Sequence record: MN850592.1 | Direction: 5' to 3' (one strand) | DNA length: 42,379 bases | DNA from: Escherichia phage aldrigsur | Part shown: positions 12,989-23,879 of the stretch, piece after piece | Numbering within the stretch: the stretch's first letter is position 1 | How the letters are laid out: each line of letters begins with the position of its first letter | Program-made: the position numbers and the translations under genes | The notes under the pieces: generated by a model | The model's database searches: none | Seen by the model: the letters and a program-made list of their open reading frames with translations, nothing else | What the model was told of the DNA's origin: nothing

Positions 12989-13294
12989 CTACTCCTTAAT
13001 TTGTCCAGCCAACCGCTCAACCTCAGCCGCATCGTCTTGAAATTCTTCGACAATACCAACGCCGTAGGTAGGTTTATCGTAACCGGGTTGCGCCTGATTA
13101 CGCTGCCCTAAGTCTGCCAGCACCTCGTGTTGGAGCGTGCTGTTATTCGTACCCGTACCGCCGCAGGCTTCGCAGTCCATCAGGACTACCTGCCCACCAA
13201 TTAACATGCCCCGGTAGGTGCCACTCCCATGGCACGCACCGCACACATTCTTGTCTACCGCTGTGTCATCGACAGCTCTCTGATAACGACTCAT
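12989..13294 (-). CDS. Small DnaJ-type zinc-finger protein (two CxxCxGxG motifs), ~101 aa
   Basis: CGACHGSG and CEACGGTG motifs; preferred ATG at 13294 with AGGGGA SD (ORF track gives 12989..13354). Confidence 0.55.
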   Translation of the reverse strand: MSRYQRAVDDTAVDKNVCGACHGSGTYRGMLIGGQVVLMDCEACGGTGTNNSTLQHEVLADLGQRNQAQPGYDKPTYGVGIVEEFQDDAAEVERLAGQIKE

Positions 13295-13302
13295 ACAATC
13301 CC

Positions 13303-13482
13303 CTACGCCAGATAGCAGATGAACCAAGTTGGCAGTACAGCCAACAGTACCCACACAACGAAACCAGCAGAGCCAGCCCGTGTCGGGTAGTGCGTCAAGT
13401 TGTAAGACTTACACGCGCTGAGGGTGGCCAGTGTAAAGTACACGAACCAGAACAAAGCAATCACATAAAGTAAAGCACTCAT
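13303..13482 (-). CDS. Small membrane protein (two predicted TM helices), ~59 aa
   Basis: Hydrophobic segments; ATG at 13482 with AAGGAAAA SD, ATGA overlap with upstream stop (ORF track 13303..13527). Confidence 0.45.
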   Translation of the reverse strand: MSALLYVIALFWFVYFTLATLSACKSYNLTHYPTRAGSAGFVVWVLLAVLPTWFICYLA

Positions 13483-14063
13483 TTCGTTTTCCTTAAAGCA
13501 AGTTCCAGAATGAACAGCGCATTGCAAGCAGCGTGCGCCAGATGGTGCAGATTGGATTCCGGGTCAGTCTCCTCACCCTTACCCACTGCGGTCAGGTGAC
13601 GAAGCAGCGCTGACTTGTAACGTTCCTCACCTTCCGGCACGGTCTGCCACGAGTGAGCCGCGTACTTCTGAGCGCCGAAGGTTAGCACGCTGGCTACAGC
13701 TTCCAGCGCATTCGGGCAGCCGTCGAACAGCAGAGCCATGCGAGGCTTGTCGCCGTCGAACTTCATACCGCCCGGCCCACCAACACCCTGACCAATGGCC
13801 ACGGCCACCTCAACATCAGAGGCCGGGTCATATGGGTCGTTCTCAATGAACGCAGTCTGGACTGGCTGTACCTCATAAGGCTCCAGTACCAGATGTTCCG
13901 TCCTGCCGTCCCAAACGCAGGTGTAATAATCCCTGCTGTCGTTAGGTACATCATAGGGTTCATCGTACGTCAGGATGATACCGTTGTCCCGCATAGCGTT
14001 GAGCCGTGGGCTTTGGTAGTCTCGGTTAATATCCAGACAGAACTTGTCACCACGTTTACTCAT
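13479..14063 (-). CDS. Hypothetical protein, possibly nucleotide pyrophosphohydrolase (MazG/dNTP diphosphohydrolase-like), ~194 aa
   Basis: Alpha-helical C-terminal half with K..R...Y/W pattern reminiscent of phage dNTP pyrophosphohydrolases (weak, from memory); start at 14063 with GGAG SD (ORF track 13479..14105). Confidence 0.4.
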   Translation of the reverse strand: MSKRGDKFCLDINRDYQSPRLNAMRDNGIILTYDEPYDVPNDSRDYYTCVWDGRTEHLVLEPYEVQPVQTAFIENDPYDPASDVEVAVAIGQGVGGPGGMKFDGDKPRMALLFDGCPNALEAVASVLTFGAQKYAAHSWQTVPEGEERYKSALLRHLTAVGKGEETDPESNLHHLAHAACNALFILELALRKTK

Positions 14064-14559
14064 CTTTGTCTCCATCGTATTTGGCATTGGCGTGGACGTA
14101 TTCATGGTTGTCCTCGTACCGGGTCACTTCATACACTGTGATGCCGAGGCTTCGCATGAAGTCCACGATGTGCGGCAGGTCATCGAAAGCACACACGATG
14201 TTCTCGATACCAATATCCTCCAGAGCGGATAGCTTCATCTCTGTGTCCTTACGGCAGTCACCAATCTCTCTCATGATTAGCTTGTCGTAAACAACGCCAG
14301 CTTCGTCGAGCCACTGCTCTGTTACTTCACGGGCCACGGCCCCGCGTCCAGTCAGGATGACAATGCGATACGTGAGGGCCAGAGCGTTCACAATGTCAAT
14401 CGTATCCTGAAACGCAGGGTCGTCAGCGCCAGCCAAGTTGAACTCGGCCCACGCTTCGTCAAGGTGCCGACGCTCCGGTGGAGGCAGCAGGTGCAAACGC
14501 CAGCGGCCATCGGCCAGCGTACCATCAAGGTCTACTACTACGGTGTCTTTCATGTGCAT
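14056..14559 (-). CDS. HAD-superfamily phosphatase (polynucleotide 3'-phosphatase/nucleotidase-like), ~167 aa
   Basis: HAD motif I VVVDLDGTLADG near N-terminus, later ILTGR and FDD motifs; ATG at 14559 with GAGGAAG SD (ORF track 14056..14724). Confidence 0.65.
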   Translation of the reverse strand: MHMKDTVVVDLDGTLADGRWRLHLLPPPERRHLDEAWAEFNLAGADDPAFQDTIDIVNALALTYRIVILTGRGAVAREVTEQWLDEAGVVYDKLIMREIGDCRKDTEMKLSALEDIGIENIVCAFDDLPHIVDFMRSLGITVYEVTRYEDNHEYVHANAKYDGDKDE

Positions 14560-14749
14560 CGTGTGCTTCCTCAAGAGCAAAGATAATGTCTCGGACGTAC
14601 GCCCAAGGCAACCAGACTTCCTCACCGTCCTGAGAAATGCAGACGGTGCCATCTTTGTACAGCTCAACCTGAGTGTTGGCCTCCCACTCAATCGAGAGGC
14701 CATCTTCTTTAAGCTGTACCACATCTTCTTGGTACAGGGTTCGTGTCAC
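14525..14749 (-). CDS. Hypothetical acidic protein, 74 aa
   Basis: ORF with ATGA overlap to upstream gene stop; overlaps HAD start by ~35 nt. Confidence 0.4.
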   Translation of the reverse strand: MTRTLYQEDVVQLKEDGLSIEWEANTQVELYKDGTVCISQDGEEVWLPWAYVRDIIFALEEAHDAHERHRSSRP

Positions 14750-17188: not shown

Positions 17189-18082
17189 TTACAGACTCGG
17201 CAGCCCGAAGTCAGCGTCACCAGTTACGTCCGGCTCTTTGGTGCTGGTCTTGTCAGCAGCGCCAGCCGTCTCCAGCTCCTTCACTTCTTCCTTGACCTCG
17301 GCCACTTCCTCCGGCGCACCCACGTCACCCAGCTCCGGCAGCTCAGCGATTGCAGAGCCAGCACCTGCACCATTCAGCAGCAGGTCAAGCGGAGAGCCGG
17401 GGAACTCTGGAGATTCCAGCAGCTTATCCTGAATCCAGTTCTTGGATTTGCCATCGTCGTTCTTACCTTCGATGTACAGGGATTCCCAGTCTTCCTTGGT
17501 CGGACGGTTCCACAGGAACAGCTTGAACAGCGTCTCGTCCTCAACCTCCGGCACCGGGTACGGCTGGTCAGTCACCGGGTCAACCGCGAGCATGATGTTC
17601 TCAAGGTCAATGTTGGCGTACACCTTCTTGTTCTCGCCCTCGCCCGATTCGTTGTGGATAATCGGAACGATGAAGGTGTGGTTCAGAAGCTGCGCGAAGT
17701 GCTTCGCAGTCTTGTCCGGGTTCATACGCTTGAACAGTTTGTATGCGCCGGACTTGCTGTTGAGGTCTTTCTTCACAGCGATGAACTGCGTGCGCACCTT
17801 GCCCGGCACCATCTTACCATTGACAACTTCGTGGTAAGTCTCGCCGTTCTTGGCCTTGCCCCACAGCGCGAACTGGAGGAAGAACTTATTGACAGGCGGC
17901 TTGTCCGGTGCCTGCTTGGTTACGCTCGGCCCCACTTCAATGTAGCCAACCAGACGTGCCAGTGCCTTACCTTCCGGCAGCAGCTTACCACCACCAGACG
18001 TGGCTTCGTTAAAGTCAAGTTCTTCCTCGTCAACGTACTGTTCGACGATGGAGTTCATGCGGTTCAATACAGATGCGGTCAT
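17189..18082 (-). CDS. Hypothetical protein with acidic C-terminal tail (ssDNA-binding protein candidate), 297 aa
   Basis: Position between DNA polymerase and exonuclease; acidic tail ...DVTGDADFGLPSL. Confidence 0.5.
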   Translation of the reverse strand: MTASVLNRMNSIVEQYVDEEELDFNEATSGGGKLLPEGKALARLVGYIEVGPSVTKQAPDKPPVNKFFLQFALWGKAKNGETYHEVVNGKMVPGKVRTQFIAVKKDLNSKSGAYKLFKRMNPDKTAKHFAQLLNHTFIVPIIHNESGEGENKKVYANIDLENIMLAVDPVTDQPYPVPEVEDETLFKLFLWNRPTKEDWESLYIEGKNDDGKSKNWIQDKLLESPEFPGSPLDLLLNGAGAGSAIAELPELGDVGAPEEVAEVKEEVKELETAGAADKTSTKEPDVTGDADFGLPSL

Positions 18083-20544
18083 AATGCGATACCCTTACTC
18101 GTCAGGAATTGTCTCTTAAACTCCAGCACTTCATCGGCTGTCGTCTCTACGTGGTGCTTCTCGTACATGCTTGGCCCTGCTTCCACCTCTGCCGGGAACG
18201 GCACTGTCAGGTTATACTCTGGCCATACGTGGTTATAGTATTCCGGGATGCTCTCCATGATTGCCTTGAGTCCAACGAAGAACTCGTGAGGGCAGTCAGG
18301 TGCAATGTCGAAATAGAATGCGTCATGCACTTGGTTGATGGGAACCACACGCCCACCAAAGAAGTCATTCGATAGCAGCCAGCGGAACAGCAAGCCACCG
18401 ATTCCCTGTACCCAAAATGCTGTCTCACCCTGAATGGGATAGTTACGCATCTGAGTTGGTTTGTATTCCATCAGGTGAGCACGCGCCGCCTTGTTCCATT
18501 TCTCGTACTGACGGAATGAATAACAAGTTCCACCCGGCGAACGGAAGTGACCACGGCGATACACCTGCCACCGCCCGTTCTCGTCCTGCTCCTTGAATAC
18601 ATTGCTCTGTCCACTTTTCTCTACGGCAGGGAAGATAACCGCGTCGAACCATTCTTCAACTTCCGGGAACAGACCCTTCTCGTTGTCGATGAACGCCTGC
18701 GCTTCTTCCTCTGAGCAACCAGTCGAGTAAGCAATACCTCGCGCTGTTGCACCGTACTGGTATGAGAACGCCTTCGGCTTAATGTCAGTACGCATCTGAC
18801 TGTACCGTGCATGGTCAGGATGGGATTCATCCTTGCACTTCTTAAGCACGTCCTCGTACGGCTCGTTGAGCTGAGCTGACAATCGCATACAGTGCATGTC
18901 GATACCATCGAGCAATGCACGAATCAGGTTCTTATCCTTACTGAACCCGGCCAGCCCCACCACTTCCAGTGCCGAGTAGTCAGCTTCAACGATGCGGCCA
19001 CCTTCACCAAAGCGGGAGGTGAACATCTGCTTAACCTTACTCGTACCTTTACGTGGCAAGTTCTGGCTGTTCGGTCGCGCCGAAGATAAGCGCGTCGTCT
19101 CGGTCGCGGTCATGTTGATGGTGTGGTGTACGATACTGTCCGGCTGGATGAACTGCATCATCCCCGACTGGCCAGTCACGTTACCTTCTTCATCGAACGT
19201 CTCGCTGAGGTAGTAGGTGCCGAGGTCTTTCTGTGCCTTGGCCCGGTCAGCAATCTCCACCACGCCGGGAATCTTACGAGCTGCCAGAATGTCCAGCACC
19301 TCACCCGCCGTACTGAATACCGGGGAACCATCGGCCAGCCTACGCTTACCTACCCAATCACCTGTGCGCCGGAGATACTCGCCCGGCTTCTTCGGGTCTT
19401 CCCATTCGAGGTTGTCTGCAATCTCCTTCGCTCGTTTATCCTGCACACGCAGAAGCCCCGGCATACGGAACAGCACCTCACCCCACTTGGTATCCACCTC
19501 GTCGGTAGCCAGCTTCTCAAACTTCGGCTCGCCCTTGTGCTTGCCGCTGGTGTAGATAGTCTGGTGTACCTTCTCAACCGGGTCGTACCACAACCCAGTC
19601 TCGTCATCCCACTCACACTCGCTGGTATGCTTGAGCCACTTGTCCTTGCCTCGCTTGAACAGTGGTGCATCCACCTTCACGTAAATGAGATTGCCCTCGG
19701 CATCCCGGCGCTCGACTCGCGCCTTGTACTTCATCACACCACCGAACACGAAGGCGCTCATGTGATAAGCTGACGTGAACTTGAATTGCTCACGCGCTTC
19801 CTTCGGCATGTCGGCTGGCAGGTAACTCAGCAGCGTTTCAGTCAGCCCACTGATTGCATCCTGTAACTCGCGACGGTTGCGCTCGGCTACCTCGCGGTCA
19901 ACATGCAGACCAGCGTGCATCATGTACGCCCACATGAGCATACCTTCGAAGCGGGTCAGTGCCATCGGCAACATGCCCTGCTTTGTCAGTTCAGCCCACT
20001 GACCAACGAACAGCTTGGTCGTGTTCTCAATATCCCCGGACGGCCCGGACAGATACTCGCTCAGCAGCTCAGGGTCAATCTGGCTGGTCAGGTAGCCTGA
20101 CTCCCACATTGCCTTGACTGCATCCACCTTGTGAGTACCACCATACTTCGGTGCTGTCTCGTTCAAGGATGGGTACTGGGATTGCTGATGCGTCAGCAGG
20201 TACTCAGCATACGCGGTACAGAATACACGGCCACCTCGTTTGAGGAAGGCAATGAACTCGTCACCGTAATGCTCGAACCACCAGCTCAATTCATACGGCG
20301 CGTTGTGAGCTACCAGAATGTTCGTGTCAGGATGCAGGTGCAGACTCTTGTTCTGCAACCAGTCCTCACGAGAACTGTACCGATACTCCTCGCGCTCGTA
20401 GAATACCCAGCCATCCTTGGTCAGCACACAGTCACGCTGGCCCTGCATAACCACATAGTTATCCGGGCAGCGCGGCGATGCCAGCTCCCCATACCACTCA
20501 TGGTTCTCAGTCTCAACGTCGATTACCTGTGCTCTTATTGCCAT
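18079..20544 (-). CDS. Family A DNA polymerase with N-terminal 3'-5' exonuclease (T7 gp5-like), 821 aa
   Basis: Motif A region VEADYSALEVVGLA, motif C NQVHDAFYFD, Exo I-like VIDVETEN. Confidence 0.9.
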   Translation of the reverse strand: MAIRAQVIDVETENHEWYGELASPRCPDNYVVMQGQRDCVLTKDGWVFYEREEYRYSSREDWLQNKSLHLHPDTNILVAHNAPYELSWWFEHYGDEFIAFLKRGGRVFCTAYAEYLLTHQQSQYPSLNETAPKYGGTHKVDAVKAMWESGYLTSQIDPELLSEYLSGPSGDIENTTKLFVGQWAELTKQGMLPMALTRFEGMLMWAYMMHAGLHVDREVAERNRRELQDAISGLTETLLSYLPADMPKEAREQFKFTSAYHMSAFVFGGVMKYKARVERRDAEGNLIYVKVDAPLFKRGKDKWLKHTSECEWDDETGLWYDPVEKVHQTIYTSGKHKGEPKFEKLATDEVDTKWGEVLFRMPGLLRVQDKRAKEIADNLEWEDPKKPGEYLRRTGDWVGKRRLADGSPVFSTAGEVLDILAARKIPGVVEIADRAKAQKDLGTYYLSETFDEEGNVTGQSGMMQFIQPDSIVHHTINMTATETTRLSSARPNSQNLPRKGTSKVKQMFTSRFGEGGRIVEADYSALEVVGLAGFSKDKNLIRALLDGIDMHCMRLSAQLNEPYEDVLKKCKDESHPDHARYSQMRTDIKPKAFSYQYGATARGIAYSTGCSEEEAQAFIDNEKGLFPEVEEWFDAVIFPAVEKSGQSNVFKEQDENGRWQVYRRGHFRSPGGTCYSFRQYEKWNKAARAHLMEYKPTQMRNYPIQGETAFWVQGIGGLLFRWLLSNDFFGGRVVPINQVHDAFYFDIAPDCPHEFFVGLKAIMESIPEYYNHVWPEYNLTVPFPAEVEAGPSMYEKHHVETTADEVLEFKRQFLTSKGIAL

Positions 20545-20554
20545 TCATCCCCCG

Positions 20555-21238
20555 CTATGCTGTGCCACCCAAATGGTCTGGCATACGATTGACGTATGCT
20601 TCGATGCGCTCGCGGTGTGTCTCGTGCTTCTCAAGCATGTAGGCCACACGACTCAGGCTGGCATCCGGTCGGCAGACACGGAGAGTCAGCAGGTCGTCGT
20701 AGCTTTCAACCAGACTGGCCAGCGCCGGATACCACTGCACGTCCTCGGCTGTTAGCTTCGGCTCATACGGGTACGCCATGAACTCACCGGGGTCACGGCT
20801 GTACTGCCCGGAGTATCGCGGGATACTGGACGGGAAGTAGAACTGGTTCAGGTTGAAGTCGAACTCGCTCAGCACCTGTGACCAGCAGCCACATTTACTA
20901 ATGATGATGTCAACCGGGCCGAGCTTGAACACACCGTACAGACGGGAACCGAAGTCGCCGCCCTCGGCTGCGTCGTGGTAGCTTGGCATGTACTCATACG
21001 GCAGGTTGTGCTGCTTGGCATACGCTTCGAGGTTGGTGTCCAACCATTCCAATCTACCGACCACGCGGCTTACATCCCCACCCCAACCGAAGACCACGAT
21101 GTCATAGTCCTTCGGCTCAACACCCAGCGCTGTATCCCTTGCCCCTCCCCCGGCAACCACAAAGTTCAGCTCATGTGATTGCAGCAGACGGCAGATGTCC
21201 TCTGCCCATACGCGCTTGACTTCTGCATTACTTATCAT
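20555..21238 (-). CDS. Pol-beta-superfamily nucleotidyltransferase, CCA-adding/poly(A) polymerase head-domain-like, 227 aa
   Basis: FVVAGGGARDTALGVEPKDYDIVVFG matches class II CCA/PAP head signature GGxVRDxLLGxxPKDxDxVV (E. coli Cca N-terminus as I recall it); lacks DNA ligase KxDG motif. Confidence 0.65.
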   Translation of the reverse strand: MISNAEVKRVWAEDICRLLQSHELNFVVAGGGARDTALGVEPKDYDIVVFGWGGDVSRVVGRLEWLDTNLEAYAKQHNLPYEYMPSYHDAAEGGDFGSRLYGVFKLGPVDIIISKCGCWSQVLSEFDFNLNQFYFPSSIPRYSGQYSRDPGEFMAYPYEPKLTAEDVQWYPALASLVESYDDLLTLRVCRPDASLSRVAYMLEKHETHRERIEAYVNRMPDHLGGTA

Positions 21239-21419
21239 GCTTCTGTTTCCCCTTGCGATAAGTGAAGTTCACCACTGCCACCACATCAGCAGGCGGCACA
21301 TTGAAACGTTCGGCCAGCGCCTCAGCACCACGGAACGCATCACCCTTCCGGTACTGCGCCCGGATGGTTGCTTGCTCACGTTGGTTTAAGGGTGCCGCTC
21401 GATACGTGCGTTCTTCCAT
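21228..21419 (-). CDS. Hypothetical basic protein, 63 aa
   Basis: ATG with GGAG SD. Confidence 0.45.
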   Translation of the reverse strand: MEERTYRAAPLNQREQATIRAQYRKGDAFRGAEALAERFNVPPADVVAVVNFTYRKGKQKHDK

Positions 21420-21539: not shown

Positions 21540-21902
21540 TCACCACTTACTCGGCACGCTGCCGGGCAGGTAGCTGGTCGTTGGCTTACGCTCAACGTAC
21601 TGGTTGTACACTGACATGGCATCGCACGCCGCTTGGTACAGACGCTCAGCCTCAGCGTAACTCCAGTCCTCGGCAGTCGCCTCCGGTTCCGGCGTGGCTG
21701 CCACATGCGGCGCGTCACCAATCCGCGCCCACGACGCATGGCGTGCAGTCCACGAGCCGCTGATACCAGAACCACGCGCACCATCATCGCGGTCAATGCT
21801 CACGTACTTGTCGTTGATGTCAACCACAGTACCCTTCGCACCGTAATGCACACTGCGTGCATCAATGTTTACTACTCGGTCGCCTACCTTTAAATGGCTC
21901 AT
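21540..21902 (-). CDS. Hypothetical protein, 120 aa
   Basis: ORF tightly coupled downstream of helicase. Confidence 0.5.
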   Translation of the reverse strand: MSHLKVGDRVVNIDARSVHYGAKGTVVDINDKYVSIDRDDGARGSGISGSWTARHASWARIGDAPHVAATPEPEATAEDWSYAEAERLYQAACDAMSVYNQYVERKPTTSYLPGSVPSKW

Positions 21903-23167
21903 TACATATCCTCGTATTGGCAGCGGTCAGCAAAGAAGTGTACCTGCGACCGCACGTTGCTTGGACGCCCAGCAATCTGGCGTTTGTTCTTCGGCGTACT
22001 GACACCGCGCCGCGCCGCCAGTGATGGGTCATCCACACTGCCGAGCATCACGATAACATCAGTCGCCCCTTGGATACCAGTCTTGGAATCCTTGAGCGCA
22101 TCCAGTGCCGGGAACATATCATCGGCACCATCAGCAGATACCTGCACCGTAGCCAGCGACACAAAGTTGTGACGCACAGCCAGCTCACGTACCTCCTGCC
22201 ATAGCTGCTCGACCTGACTCGCCTTGTTACTGGACGGGTCAGACACAGACAGCTTGAAGTTGGCAAGCATATCCCACACCACAATGCACGGGTTCATCGC
22301 TTCGATAACTTGCTCAGCTTTCGCCAGCGTTGCACCGTGCATATCCTTCACACGAATCACATTGGCTGGCGCACCCAGTGCCTTGGCATACGCAGCGTGC
22401 AGCTTGCTCCTGTCCTCACCCAGCGCTTTCAGTTCCGGGAGCGTACAGTTGAGCGCCGCCTGATAGATTCGCGGGATGATGTTGATGCCCTGCCCCTCAT
22501 TGTTGAACCAGAGGATTGGCCTGCCCGGATACAGCTTCGCTGCTGTCGCCGCCATTCGCGTAAGGTTAAACGCGATGAAGCTGGTCTTCCCACTGTCAGG
22601 TCGGGCAGCGATTGCAACGGAGTCGCCGGGAAGCAGTACGCGTACGCTATCTTGCAGGCACATGAGACCGAACTTAAAGCCTTGGTCATCATCAGTCCGA
22701 TTAATAATGTCAACAACATCGTCATCGACGTAATCGGTAACGGATGATTGACCCCGACTGCGGCGTGCGCCCTCAGCCAGACGGCCAAGCTCATAGATAA
22801 TATCCAGTTCTTCACCATTGTCGTACCTCTGCATTAGCAGGTTCGCACGACCAGCAGTGTCCAACTCTACGAGCTGGTCAAGGATGCCCTCCTTCTGTTC
22901 CTTCGTTGGCTTGTACTCTTTGAGCTGAGCGCACAACGAATCGAAGGCTGCCATCTGTTCAGGCGTGCTGCCTGTCTTCAAACGAACATGCGTACCCAGT
23001 GTCTCAATGTCAATGAAGTCACTGTCCGGGAACGCGTCAAAGTATGAGCCATAAGCACGCAGCATATAGCCCGTGGTCTGGCTCATTGTATCTTCCGGGA
23101 TGGCGTGTCGCAGGGAGTTGTACTTCCCGCGCTCGCGCATCACCGTTAACAACAGCTTGTCAAGCAC
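21902..23167 (-). CDS. DnaB-like replicative DNA helicase, 421 aa
   Basis: Walker A AARPDSGKTSF; position after primase. Confidence 0.85.
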   Translation of the reverse strand: MLDKLLLTVMRERGKYNSLRHAIPEDTMSQTTGYMLRAYGSYFDAFPDSDFIDIETLGTHVRLKTGSTPEQMAAFDSLCAQLKEYKPTKEQKEGILDQLVELDTAGRANLLMQRYDNGEELDIIYELGRLAEGARRSRGQSSVTDYVDDDVVDIINRTDDDQGFKFGLMCLQDSVRVLLPGDSVAIAARPDSGKTSFIAFNLTRMAATAAKLYPGRPILWFNNEGQGINIIPRIYQAALNCTLPELKALGEDRSKLHAAYAKALGAPANVIRVKDMHGATLAKAEQVIEAMNPCIVVWDMLANFKLSVSDPSSNKASQVEQLWQEVRELAVRHNFVSLATVQVSADGADDMFPALDALKDSKTGIQGATDVIVMLGSVDDPSLAARRGVSTPKNKRQIAGRPSNVRSQVHFFADRCQYEDM

Positions 23168-23168
23168 A

Positions 23169-23879
23169 TCACTCTCCTACTATCTGCACTCGCCCTACCA
23201 CGCGCAGTTCCCTGCGGATACGTTGAGCACTTGGGTGGTGACAGATGACCACGATGTTGTAGCCATAGGCCAGCGTCACACTGACCAGTGCCTGCAACGT
23301 TGTGTCATCCACGTTCGGTACGAATGCACAGTTGCCCCCGTCTCGTACCTGCTGTAGATACTCAGCCACCTCGCCATAAATCCACAGGCAGTTTGTCTCA
23401 GCATCACCACGCGGGTGTACCTTCATCGCCAAGCTATGCTTGTGCGGCGAGCGCCACGGGATGAACTGCCTGCCCGTGTAGTCCAGACCACAGTAGCTGC
23501 CCGTGTCGTCCGGCAGATACAGCCTGCCATACGTTGGGCTTGCAGTCAGGAGTGACAGGTGCGGCATCAGGTTCTCGCGCTCCAGCACGGGCAGGAGAAG
23601 GCGGGGCTGCTTGGCAATCACCTCAGTGATAGGCACAACATCAGTCGGCACCTTCACCTGCACCTCGGCTGGCGGTACGTACACTGCATGGGTCAGGTCA
23701 TGCTTGCGGCTGTACCCACAGCGATGGCACTTGCACCAGATGTAATCCGGCGCACGGCCATACTCAAAGTTGGTCTTGCTGAATGACCGCGAGCAACTGT
23801 GAAACGTCCTTCGCTTTTGTCCTACTGGCAGACGCTTCGCCAGCTCCGGCCACTCGTCGTTGCTCACTGATTTCATCAT
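23169..23879 (-). CDS. DNA primase (zinc-binding N-terminus), 236 aa
   Basis: Cys/His cluster HSCSRS...CKCHRCG near N-terminus; located directly upstream of helicase as in phiKMV-like phages. Confidence 0.6.
   Translation of the reverse strand: MMKSVSNDEWPELAKRLPVGQKRRTFHSCSRSFSKTNFEYGRAPDYIWCKCHRCGYSRKHDLTHAVYVPPAEVQVKVPTDVVPITEVIAKQPRLLLPVLERENLMPHLSLLTASPTYGRLYLPDDTGSYCGLDYTGRQFIPWRSPHKHSLAMKVHPRGDAETNCLWIYGEVAEYLQQVRDGGNCAFVPNVDDTTLQALVSVTLAYGYNIVVICHHPSAQRIRRELRVVGRVQIVGE

What the first reader, a model, noticed from the sequence alone, without database searches (positions are those of the whole stretch)
20555..21238. CCA-adding/poly(A)-polymerase-like nucleotidyltransferase in the replication module
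The 227-aa protein carries GGGARDTALGVEPKDYDIVV, the hallmark of class II tRNA nucleotidyltransferase/PcnB head domains, but is only about half the length of a full CCA enzyme. It sits at the position between helicase and DNA polymerase where phiKMV-like phages, as I recall, encode DNA ligase. A minimal Pol-beta NTase here could repair tRNA 3' ends against host tRNA-targeting defences, tail RNAs, or act in an unrecognised nucleotide-signalling or anti-defence role.
Basis: partly seen in the sequence, partly recalled or inferred. Interest (0 to 1): 0.6.

Follow-up and report, generated by a model that had tools for sequence, protein, structure and literature searches.

The report
Small phage nucleotidyltransferase beside the polymerase
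The gene is real and encodes a stripped-down relative of tRNA CCA-adding and poly(A) polymerase enzymes, but it belongs to an already catalogued family found next to the replication genes of many T7/phiKMV-like phages, and nobody has yet shown what that family does.

Summary
Observation confirmed. A 227-aa ORF (20555-21238, minus strand) carries GGGARDTALGVEPKDYDIVV, lies between helicase and DNA polymerase, and is under purifying selection (dN/dS 0.13).

The window is a complete Bonnellvirus genome (98.7% identical to Escherichia phage altidsur). The protein belongs to PHROG 1614 'nucleotidyltransferase' (1.6e-42) and is already annotated as such in RefSeq (J8-65 gp17). It is a homologue of phiKMV ORF16, which sits beside the phiKMV ligase, so it does not replace a ligase.

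It is not a true CCA-adding enzyme:
- The ribose-reading RRD motif reads xFD.
- The base-templating EDxxR motif is missing.
- The tRNA-binding body and tail domains are missing.
- The whole family is acidic (median pI 4.8).

Homologues lie beside replisome genes in seven lineages. The catalytic domain is remotely related to the N-terminal domain of Gad2, an anti-Gabija protein of unknown mechanism.

Most likely reading: an active minimal nucleotidyltransferase made with the replisome, whose acceptor is unresolved. Known family, moderate-to-low interest.

The parts
20555..21238 (-). CDS of the 227-aa minimal class-II-like nucleotidyltransferase (PHROG 1614; homologue of phiKMV ORF16)
21092..21151 (-). 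Motif A, residues 30-49 GGGARDTALGVEPKDYDIVV: the GG-x-x-RD turn plus metal-binding D44-x-D46
   Evidence: G30, G31, R34, D44 and D46 are invariant in 144/144 family members. Aligned to GGxVRD..DxD of Cca/PcnB
20909..20911 (-). D110, the candidate third catalytic carboxylate, at the start of strand 109-114
   Evidence: D in 143/144 and E in 1/144. Strand position from the AF2 secondary structure. The catalytic role is inferred
20843..20863 (-). Motif-B-like segment F126-D127-F128-N129-L130-N131-Q132, aligned to RRDFTIN of class II enzymes with the two Arg lost
   Evidence: hhalign mapping E125/F126 to RR, D127 to D and N131 to N. F126 140/144, D127 143/144, N131 142/144. RRD reads the ribose (PMC2910056)
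20627..20659 (-). C-terminal helix carrying S194..R197..K204, the family signature S/T-x-x-R-x6-K
   Evidence: R197 144/144 and K204 122/144; helix 195-207. Aligned with low confidence to S148..R151..K158 of Gad2 and to the P-x-R helix of PcnB
21249..21254 (-). Shine-Dalgarno-like AAGGGG upstream of the ATG. The CDS start overlaps the preceding 63-aa ORF (21228-21419) by 11 nt
   Evidence: Sequence read; ORFs
18079..20544 (-). DNA polymerase gene. Its ATG lies 10 nt after the NTase stop codon, so the two are probably translated together
21902..23167 (-). DnaB-like replicative helicase, upstream neighbour separated from the NTase by two small ORFs (21540-21902 and 21228-21419)
   Evidence: PHROG 19 at 1.3e-63

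Best explanation
The gene encodes the Bonnellvirus counterpart of phiKMV ORF16. It is a stand-alone, catalytically intact, minimal class-II-type Pol-beta nucleotidyltransferase of PHROG 1614, made together with the replisome and probably translationally coupled to the DNA polymerase.

Shown:
- The head-domain fold of poly(A) and CCA-adding enzymes.
- Invariant GG..RD..DxD, plus D110 and D127.
- Purifying selection.
- A position next to replisome genes that is conserved in seven phage lineages.
- A remote but colinear relationship to the N-terminal NTase domain of the anti-Gabija protein Gad2.

Inferred:
- It uses two-metal-ion chemistry (D44, D46, D110) to transfer a nucleotide from an NTP or dNTP to a 3'-OH acceptor without a template.
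- Because it lacks the ribose-reading RRD, the base-templating EDxxR and the tRNA-binding body and tail, it is not a sequence-specific CCA-adding enzyme.
- Its most probable role is an accessory or counter-defence activity that modifies a nucleic-acid 3' end in support of phage replication. Whether the acceptor is RNA/tRNA or DNA is not resolved by the evidence.
Against: No biochemical or genetic data exist for this family. Gad2's own mechanism was still unknown in 2026. The family is uniformly acidic (median pI 4.78; 97% below 6) and has no recognisable nucleic-acid-binding module, which argues against unaided binding of tRNA or DNA. Pfam PF01743 is below threshold. A narrow Gad2 HMM does not reach the window protein. 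Gad2 has Q where this family has D110. Synteny with replisome genes may only reflect shared timing of expression in small genomes.
Confidence: 0.55

Rival explanations
1. It is a genuine, miniaturised tRNA nucleotidyltransferase that rebuilds CCA, or adds the terminal A, on host tRNAs damaged during infection or by tRNA-targeting defences.
Against: RRD is replaced by x-F-D (F126 in 140/144), EDxxR is absent and there are no body or tail domains. The family is acidic. The phage has no tRNA genes. The 3'-phosphatase occurs in 1290 phage records with a different host distribution, so it is not specifically linked. The gene travels with replisome genes, not translation genes.
Confidence: 0.15
2. 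It is a Gad2-like counter-defence enzyme acting at DNA ends. It would add (deoxy)nucleotides to phage DNA 3' ends or nicks, blunting end-sensing or nicking immunity such as Gabija, or preparing ends for repair.
For: The NTase domain is shared with Gad2, which is needed for SPbetaL7 to resist Gabija. Gabija acts at phage DNA ends. Loss of the ribose-reading Arg pair is shared with Gad2, which reads TFDFT. The replisome synteny is tight, and in phiKMV the gene abuts the ligase that mediates NHEJ-like repair of nuclease cuts (PMC13622161 abstract).
Against: No class II NTase is known to use DNA. The protein lacks Gad2's roughly 200-residue C-terminal half. The homology is remote: a narrow Gad2 HMM misses it and the closest relatives have no Pfam Gad2 hit. 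The protein is acidic. Its position in the replication module and its presence in every close relative examined here are not what I would expect of a variable anti-defence gene.
Confidence: 0.2
3. It is a small-substrate or protein-modifying nucleotidyltransferase. It would make a nucleotide-derived product or nucleotidylate a host or phage protein or metabolite, rather than extend a nucleic acid.
For: It is a small acidic protein made of an NTase head plus a short helical C-terminus. This resembles the size and layout of ANT(2'')-Ia and LnuA, which appear as weaker structural hits. GajA nuclease activity is reported to be nucleotide-regulated (my recollection of the literature, not checked here), so a nucleotide product could silence it.
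Confidence: 0.15
4. It is a phage poly(A)/oligo(N) polymerase that tails host or phage RNAs to change their stability.
Against: It lacks the PAP-specific motif between motif A and the flexible loop described in PMC2910056 (absent from the sequence read). It also lacks the neck, body and C-terminal RNA-binding regions, and is acidic where PcnB has pI 9.7.
Confidence: 0.1
5. It is a divergent DNA ligase adenylation domain or a decayed, inactive remnant.
For: None was found. The idea rests only on the positional argument that phiKMV has a ligase in this region.
Against: There is no ligase hit in Pfam, PHROGs, NCBIfam, PDB sequence or fold searches. All catalytic residues are invariant and dN/dS is 0.13. 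phiKMV has both genes side by side.
Confidence: 0.02

Closest known systems
phiKMV ORF16 / PHROG 1614 small phage nucleotidyltransferases (LIMEzero gp22, J8-65 gp17, LKD16, phiPsa17 gp22, Drulisvirus and Maculvirus homologues, Chaseviridae Myduc gp38)
   Same: Same family by HMM (1.6e-42; others 1e-28 to 1e-57). Same whole fold (TM up to 0.83). Same invariant residues. Same replisome-adjacent location. Already annotated 'nucleotidyltransferase'.
   Different: The Bonnellvirus/LIMEzero branch carries a roughly 40-residue insertion after motif B (PSSIPRYSGQYSRDP...YEP) that shorter members lack. Unlike phiKMV, there is no neighbouring ligase. The family has no experimentally defined activity.
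[quoted passage not shown]
   Different: Half the length. RR of RRD replaced by x-F. No EDxxR template motif. No conserved acidic residue two positions after R99, where class II enzymes have their B-x-A motif (read from the alignment). No body or tail domains. PF01743 score below the gathering cut-off. Acidic.
Gad2 (Gabija anti-defence 2, Bacillus phage SPbetaL7; Pfam PF26128)
   Same: The N-terminal roughly 165 residues of Gad2 have the same order of secondary-structure elements and the same motifs: AGG, DxD, FDF and an S..R..K helix. Gad2 hits PHROG 1614 at 8.2e-6. Many relatives of the window protein carry a weak Pfam Gad2 hit.
   Different: Gad2 is 400 aa with an extra C-terminal half containing many beta-strands. 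It lacks the RD of GGxxRD and has Q88 where this family has D110. Pairwise similarity to the window protein is not significant. Anti-Gabija activity has been shown only for Gad2 proper.
MenT/AbiEii-type nucleotidyltransferase toxins
   Different: Much weaker structural similarity than to class II enzymes. No PADLOC hit. No antitoxin partner. Encoded in a lytic phage's replication module.

Membership tests
Class II CCA-adding enzyme / poly(A) polymerase | Motif A: GGxVRD followed by the DxD metal ligands | tested here: met
   GGGARDTALGVEPKDYD at residues 30-46. G30, G31, R34, D44 and D46 are 144/144. Aligned to Cca/PcnB.
Class II CCA-adding enzyme / poly(A) polymerase | Pfam PF01743 (PolyA_pol head) at or above the gathering score | tested here: not met
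   14.6 bits against a cut-off of 23; only residues 28-51 align.
Class II CCA-adding enzyme / poly(A) polymerase | Head-domain fold | tested here: met
Class II CCA-adding enzyme / poly(A) polymerase | Motif B RRD (ribose recognition) | tested here: not met
   hhalign places E125-F126-D127 on R-R-D. F126 is 140/144 and no Arg is present. The role of RRD is from PMC2910056.
Class II CCA-adding enzyme / poly(A) polymerase | Motif D EDxxR (amino-acid template for C and A) | tested here: not met
   The segment aligned to EDPVR is Y158-E-P-K-L, which lies in an insertion absent from shorter relatives and is not conserved.
Class II CCA-adding enzyme / poly(A) polymerase | Body and tail domains that bind tRNA or RNA (total length about 350-470 aa) | tested here: not met
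   227 aa. Target-normalised TM is at most 0.29 to class II enzymes. All 67 relatives found in 1.84 billion representatives are 145-273 aa, apart from a 53-aa fragment and two longer spurious hits.
Class II CCA-adding enzyme / poly(A) polymerase | CTP/ATP addition to tRNA or RNA 3' ends | not testable with these tools
   Needs an enzyme assay.
PHROG 1614 / phiKMV ORF16-like small phage nucleotidyltransferase | Significant full-length match to the family profile | tested here: met
   1.6e-42, residues 6-224. hhalign against phiKMV ORF16 98.7%, E 2e-16.
PHROG 1614 / phiKMV ORF16-like small phage nucleotidyltransferase | Family-invariant residues (GG, R34, DxD, D110, FDxNxNQ, R197) | tested here: met
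   All are present in the window protein.
PHROG 1614 / phiKMV ORF16-like small phage nucleotidyltransferase | Gene placed next to primase/helicase or DNA polymerase | tested here: met
   Window: helicase, two small ORFs, NTase, DNAP. The same neighbourhood occurs in six other lineages.
Gad2 (anti-Gabija, Pfam PF26128) | Homology of the NTase domain to Gad2 | tested here: inconclusive
   For: hhalign 88.8%, E 2.5e-6, 148 columns; Gad2 hits PHROG 1614 at 8.2e-6; same secondary-structure order. Against: pairwise BLASTP not significant; a narrow Gad2 HMM does not hit the window protein.
Gad2 (anti-Gabija, Pfam PF26128) | Hit to the Pfam PF26128 model | not testable with these tools
   The local Pfam copy lacks PF26128; Gad2 itself gets no hit. 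Among precomputed hits, most relatives at 62-70% identity and several more distant ones carry one, while those at 70% or more carry none. The hit on P0033 is marked 'weak'.
Gad2 (anti-Gabija, Pfam PF26128) | Roughly 400-aa architecture with the C-terminal half | tested here: not met
   The window protein ends at residue 227. Gad2 residues 200-400 have no counterpart.
Gad2 (anti-Gabija, Pfam PF26128) | Neutralises Gabija in vivo | not testable with these tools
   Needs plaque assays. Shown only for Gad2 of SPbetaL7 and a Brevibacillus homologue.
DNA ligase (adenylation domain) | Any profile or fold similarity to ligase nucleotidyltransferase domains | tested here: not met
   No ligase family appears in Pfam, PHROGs, NCBIfam, PDB sequence or fold searches.

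The most novel reading that the evidence does not exclude
The PHROG 1614 NTases and the Gad2 N-terminal domain would form one clade of class-II-derived enzymes that lost ribose 2'-OH reading (RRD to FD) and now act on DNA rather than RNA. They would add a few nucleotides to phage DNA 3' ends or nicks at the replication fork. This would hide or repair ends targeted by end-sensing or nicking immunity such as Gabija. It could also contribute to the NHEJ-like repair scars reported for phiKMV, whose homologous gene abuts the ligase. If so, it would supply the missing mechanism for Gad2 and a new job for CCA-enzyme-like folds.
Probability: 0.15. Interest if true: 0.75.

Novelty: already known. Interest (0 to 1): 0.3.

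Why it matters
As a sequence feature this is ordinary. The same gene is annotated 'nucleotidyltransferase' in RefSeq and PHROGs. It was discussed as a putative tRNA nucleotidyltransferase of Autographiviridae in 2020. A 2026 preprint reports homologues annotated as 'Gad2 family'.

What remains open is the biochemistry. No member of this widespread family, which always sits next to replisome genes, has a known substrate. Its only functionally characterised distant relative, Gad2, defeats Gabija by an unknown mechanism. These small phages are easy to manipulate genetically, so the gene is a convenient entry point to two questions: what a CCA-enzyme head domain does without its tRNA-binding parts, and whether the catalytic domain it shares with Gad2 underlies Gabija evasion.

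Tried and rejected
- Single-sequence searches against Pfam, the PDB and NCBIfam aligned only the roughly 25-residue motif A, below their thresholds. Profiles were needed.
- hhalign of the 61-sequence profile against single Cca or PcnB sequences also aligned only motif A.
- A narrow Gad2 HMM, built from homologues at least 48% identical, gave 15 bits or less on family members. It did not hit the window protein, phiKMV ORF16, Cca or PcnB.
- PADLOC gave no hit for the window protein.
- The afdb50 fold library was unavailable.
- The idea that the NTase works with the HAD polynucleotide 3'-phosphatase as a tRNA end-healing pair was dropped. The phosphatase is in 1290 phage records with a different host distribution, and it is not annotated in the regions read for phiKMV, phiPsa17 and Maculvirus.
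- The idea that the NTase substitutes for the ligase was dropped, because phiKMV has both.
- A consistent NTase-ligase pairing was also dropped. The ligase is adjacent in phiKMV, distant in phiPsa17, nearby in Myduc and absent here.
- The long hits P0089 and P0128 from the representative search are compositional artefacts.
- Only the abstract of the phiKMV ligase-repair preprint is held. I could not check whether ORF16 came up in its screens.
- Literature searches found no enzymology for this family.
- Residue-level 3D checks, such as the distance of R197/K204 from the active site, were not possible because model coordinates are not exposed.

Full report
**1. The observation**

The window is a complete phage genome with every gene on the minus strand. 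It is 98.7% identical over 6 kb to Escherichia phage altidsur, and its close relatives are classified as Bonnellvirus (Autographivirales).

The ORF at 20555-21238 is on the minus strand and encodes 227 aa. It contains GGGARDTALGVEPKDYDIVV at residues 30-49. It has an AAGGGG Shine-Dalgarno sequence and overlaps the preceding 63-aa ORF by 11 nt. It ends 10 nt before the DNA polymerase ATG.

dN/dS against the LF82-23 and J8-65 orthologues is 0.13. The helicase (21902-23167) and primase (23169-23879) lie upstream and the polymerase (18079-20544) lies downstream.

**2. What family it belongs to**

- Pfam PolyA_pol (PF01743) scores only 14.6 bits, below the 23-bit cut-off, over residues 28-51.
- PHROG 1614 'nucleotidyltransferase' matches nearly full length at 1.6e-42.
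- RefSeq already calls the J8-65 orthologue (gp17) a nucleotidyltransferase, 'similar to LIMEzero gp22'. The LF82-23 record uses the same product name.
- tblastn finds homologues in 211 phage records, mainly from Pseudomonas, Vibrio, Klebsiella and Escherichia.
- An exhaustive HMMER scan of 1.84 billion representatives finds short proteins of 145-273 aa, a 53-aa fragment and two long hits that proved spurious. It finds no full-length CCA enzyme.
- Evseev et al. 2020 (PMC7693777) already discussed this gene as a putative tRNA nucleotidyltransferase of Autographiviridae, with LIMEzero as outgroup.

**3. Structure and active site**

An AlphaFold2 model built on a 61-sequence alignment is confident (pLDDT 88.3, pTM 0.86).

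The top Foldseek hits in the PDB are class II enzymes, with MenT1 and ANT(2'') further down. The query-normalised TM is only 0.3-0.44, so only the head domain is shared. The family profile hits CCA enzymes in the PDB at 4.6e-6.

Conservation across 144 relatives:

| Residue(s) | Conservation |
|---|---|
| G30, G31, R34, D44, D46, R197 | 144/144 |
| D110, D127 | 143/144 |
| N131 | 142/144 |
| F126 | 140/144 |

The enzyme is therefore almost certainly active. D44 and D46 would be the metal ligands, and D110 is the likely third carboxylate. That last assignment is inferred from its position on strand 109-114.

**4. Why it is not a bona fide CCA-adding enzyme**

A profile-profile alignment to E. 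coli PcnB and Cca (95.4%, E 1.8e-8) puts motif B in register. E125-F126-D127-F128-N129-L130-N131 aligns with R-R-D-F-T-I-N. The Asp and Asn are kept, but the two arginines are replaced, and F126 is nearly invariant. Those arginines belong to the RRD signature, which is 'involved in ribose recognition' (PMC2910056).

The EDxxR amino-acid template has no conserved counterpart. The aligned segment, YEPKL, lies in an insertion that shorter relatives lack. The body and tail domains are absent.

The family is uniformly acidic: median pI 4.78, 97% below 6, none above 8. The phage has no tRNA genes.

**5. Context**

That is true, but phiKMV ORF16, directly after the helicase and directly before ligase gp17, is a homologue of the window protein (hhalign 98.7%, E 2e-16). 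The NTase is therefore a conserved neighbour of the ligase, not a replacement for it. The Bonnellvirus simply has no annotated ligase.

The gene keeps its place next to replisome genes even though the local gene order differs between lineages:

| Lineage | Local gene order |
|---|---|
| Window (Bonnellvirus) | helicase, two small ORFs, NTase, DNAP |
| phiKMV | helicase, NTase, ligase, small ORF, DNAP |
| Drulisvirus | DNAP, NTase |
| Ghunavirus phiPsa17 | phage promoter, NTase, primase/helicase |
| Maculvirus | DNAP, hypothetical ORF, NTase |
| Gajwadongvirus ECBP5 | NTase, DNAP |
| Chaseviridae Myduc | NTase, primase/helicase, DNAP |

All of the homologues tested belong to PHROG 1614.

A HAD-type polynucleotide 3'-phosphatase with no kinase domain is encoded at 14056-14724. 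It occurs in 1290 phage records with a different host distribution and is not annotated in several NTase-positive lineages. No specific partnership is supported.

**6. The Gad2 lead**

Precomputed Pfam annotations give many relatives a hit to PF26128, whose name is 'Gad2'. The hit on P0033 is flagged weak.

Gad2 is a 400-aa protein of Bacillus phage SPbetaL7 with a predicted nucleotidyltransferase domain. Its deletion makes the phage Gabija-sensitive, a Brevibacillus homologue blocks Gabija, and the SPbetaL7 protein is toxic when expressed (bioRxiv 10.1101/2023.05.01.538930). Its mechanism was still listed as unknown in February 2026 (PMC12904381).

I retrieved Gad2 (OQ921347.1 109563-110765) and compared it with the window family.

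Evidence for a relationship:
- Gad2 has IAGG...DVDI, then TFDFT, then an S..R..K helix, in the same order as the window family.
- Broad family profiles align at 88.8% probability, E 2.5e-6, over 148 columns (46.5% with narrower profiles).
- Gad2 itself hits PHROG 1614 at 8.2e-6.
- The AF2 model of a 98%-identical Gad2 homologue shows the same succession of helices and strands through residue 158.

Evidence against membership:
- Pairwise BLASTP is not significant.
- A narrow Gad2 HMM does not reach the window protein.
- Gad2 lacks the RD of GGxxRD and has Q88 where this family has D110.
- The window protein lacks Gad2's C-terminal half.

I conclude that the catalytic domain is shared remotely and that the window protein is not a Gad2 orthologue.

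A September 2026 preprint reports that Emajogi gp22 is cytotoxic when strongly overexpressed. It also reports that homologues are annotated in some phages as 'Gabija anti-defense Gad2 family'. Emajogi gp22 is an NTase followed by gp23 primase/helicase, the same gene position as phiPsa17 gp22. Its homology to the window protein is inferred from that position and was not tested directly.

**7. Mechanism**

Shown: the class II head fold, intact catalytic residues, purifying selection, coupling to replisome genes, and a remote link to Gad2.

Inferred: template-independent transfer of a nucleotide to a 3'-OH acceptor, in an accessory or counter-defence role.

The acceptor is unresolved.
- RNA or tRNA is favoured by the identity of the closest characterised enzymes and by the reported toxicity.
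- DNA is suggested by the replisome synteny, by the loss of the ribose-reading arginines (shared with Gad2), and by adjacency to the phiKMV ligase, which mediates NHEJ-like repair of nuclease cuts (PMC13622161, abstract only). It is also suggested by Gabija's action at DNA ends.
- A small-molecule or protein substrate is suggested by the acidic, compact architecture.

**8. Verdict**

The feature is a member of an already catalogued and annotated family, so I rate it 'already known' and of moderate-to-low interest. The open question is the family's substrate and its possible mechanistic kinship with Gad2.

Noticed in passing
window 14056-14724 (-): The protein annotated 'polynucleotide kinase' contains only the HAD-type PNKP 3'-phosphatase domain (PF25109, 1.2e-14, residues 60-201) and no kinase domain. 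The genome has no ligase, so it cannot be part of a T4-style heal-and-seal pathway. Homologues occur in 1290 phage records.
   Followed up: partly
window 13479-14105 (-): A 208-aa protein with a dATP/dGTP diphosphohydrolase N-terminal domain (PF18909, 1e-32) lies just downstream of the phosphatase gene on the coding strand, which puts it upstream of the RNA polymerase. Its ORF overlaps the phosphatase ORF by 50 nt. phiKMV gp25 carries the same annotation.
   Followed up: no
window 17189-18082 (-): A 297-aa protein directly after the DNA polymerase (PHROG 862, unknown function, no Pfam hit) has a long acidic C-terminal tail ending ...DADFGLPSL. From memory, this resembles the acidic tail of T7-type single-stranded DNA-binding proteins.
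   Followed up: no
whole window; L003: No tRNA genes (ARAGORN) and no annotated DNA ligase in this genus, whereas phiKMV, phiPsa17 and Myduc encode a ligase.
   Followed up: partly
window 23167-23169 junction; L001:11040-11438: The close relative LF82-23 carries an extra 399-nt 'endonuclease' gene between primase and helicase. The window lacks it, so this looks like a homing-endonuclease presence/absence polymorphism.
   Followed up: no
window 21540-21902 (-) and 21228-21419 (-): Two small conserved ORFs (120 and 63 aa; PHROGs 19629 and 31596, unknown function) sit between helicase and NTase. The first has a weak SH3-like match (PF18129, below cut-off).
   Followed up: no
L011:1064-2266 (Gad2 of SPbetaL7); model m604f3fe2b9e8: Bona fide Gad2 has an invariant Q88 and a nearly invariant H91 where the PHROG 1614 family has the near-invariant D110 strand. 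It also lacks the Arg-Asp of GGxxRD. Its NTase domain weakly hits a PADLOC candidate defence protein (PDC-S19, 3.1e-4). Both points may bear on the unknown Gad2 mechanism.
   Followed up: partly
window 12989-13354 (-): A 121-aa protein immediately upstream of the phage RNA polymerase is annotated 'anti-termination Q-like' in relatives. It has a weak DnaJ-type CXXCXGXG zinc-finger match (PF00684, below cut-off).
   Followed up: no
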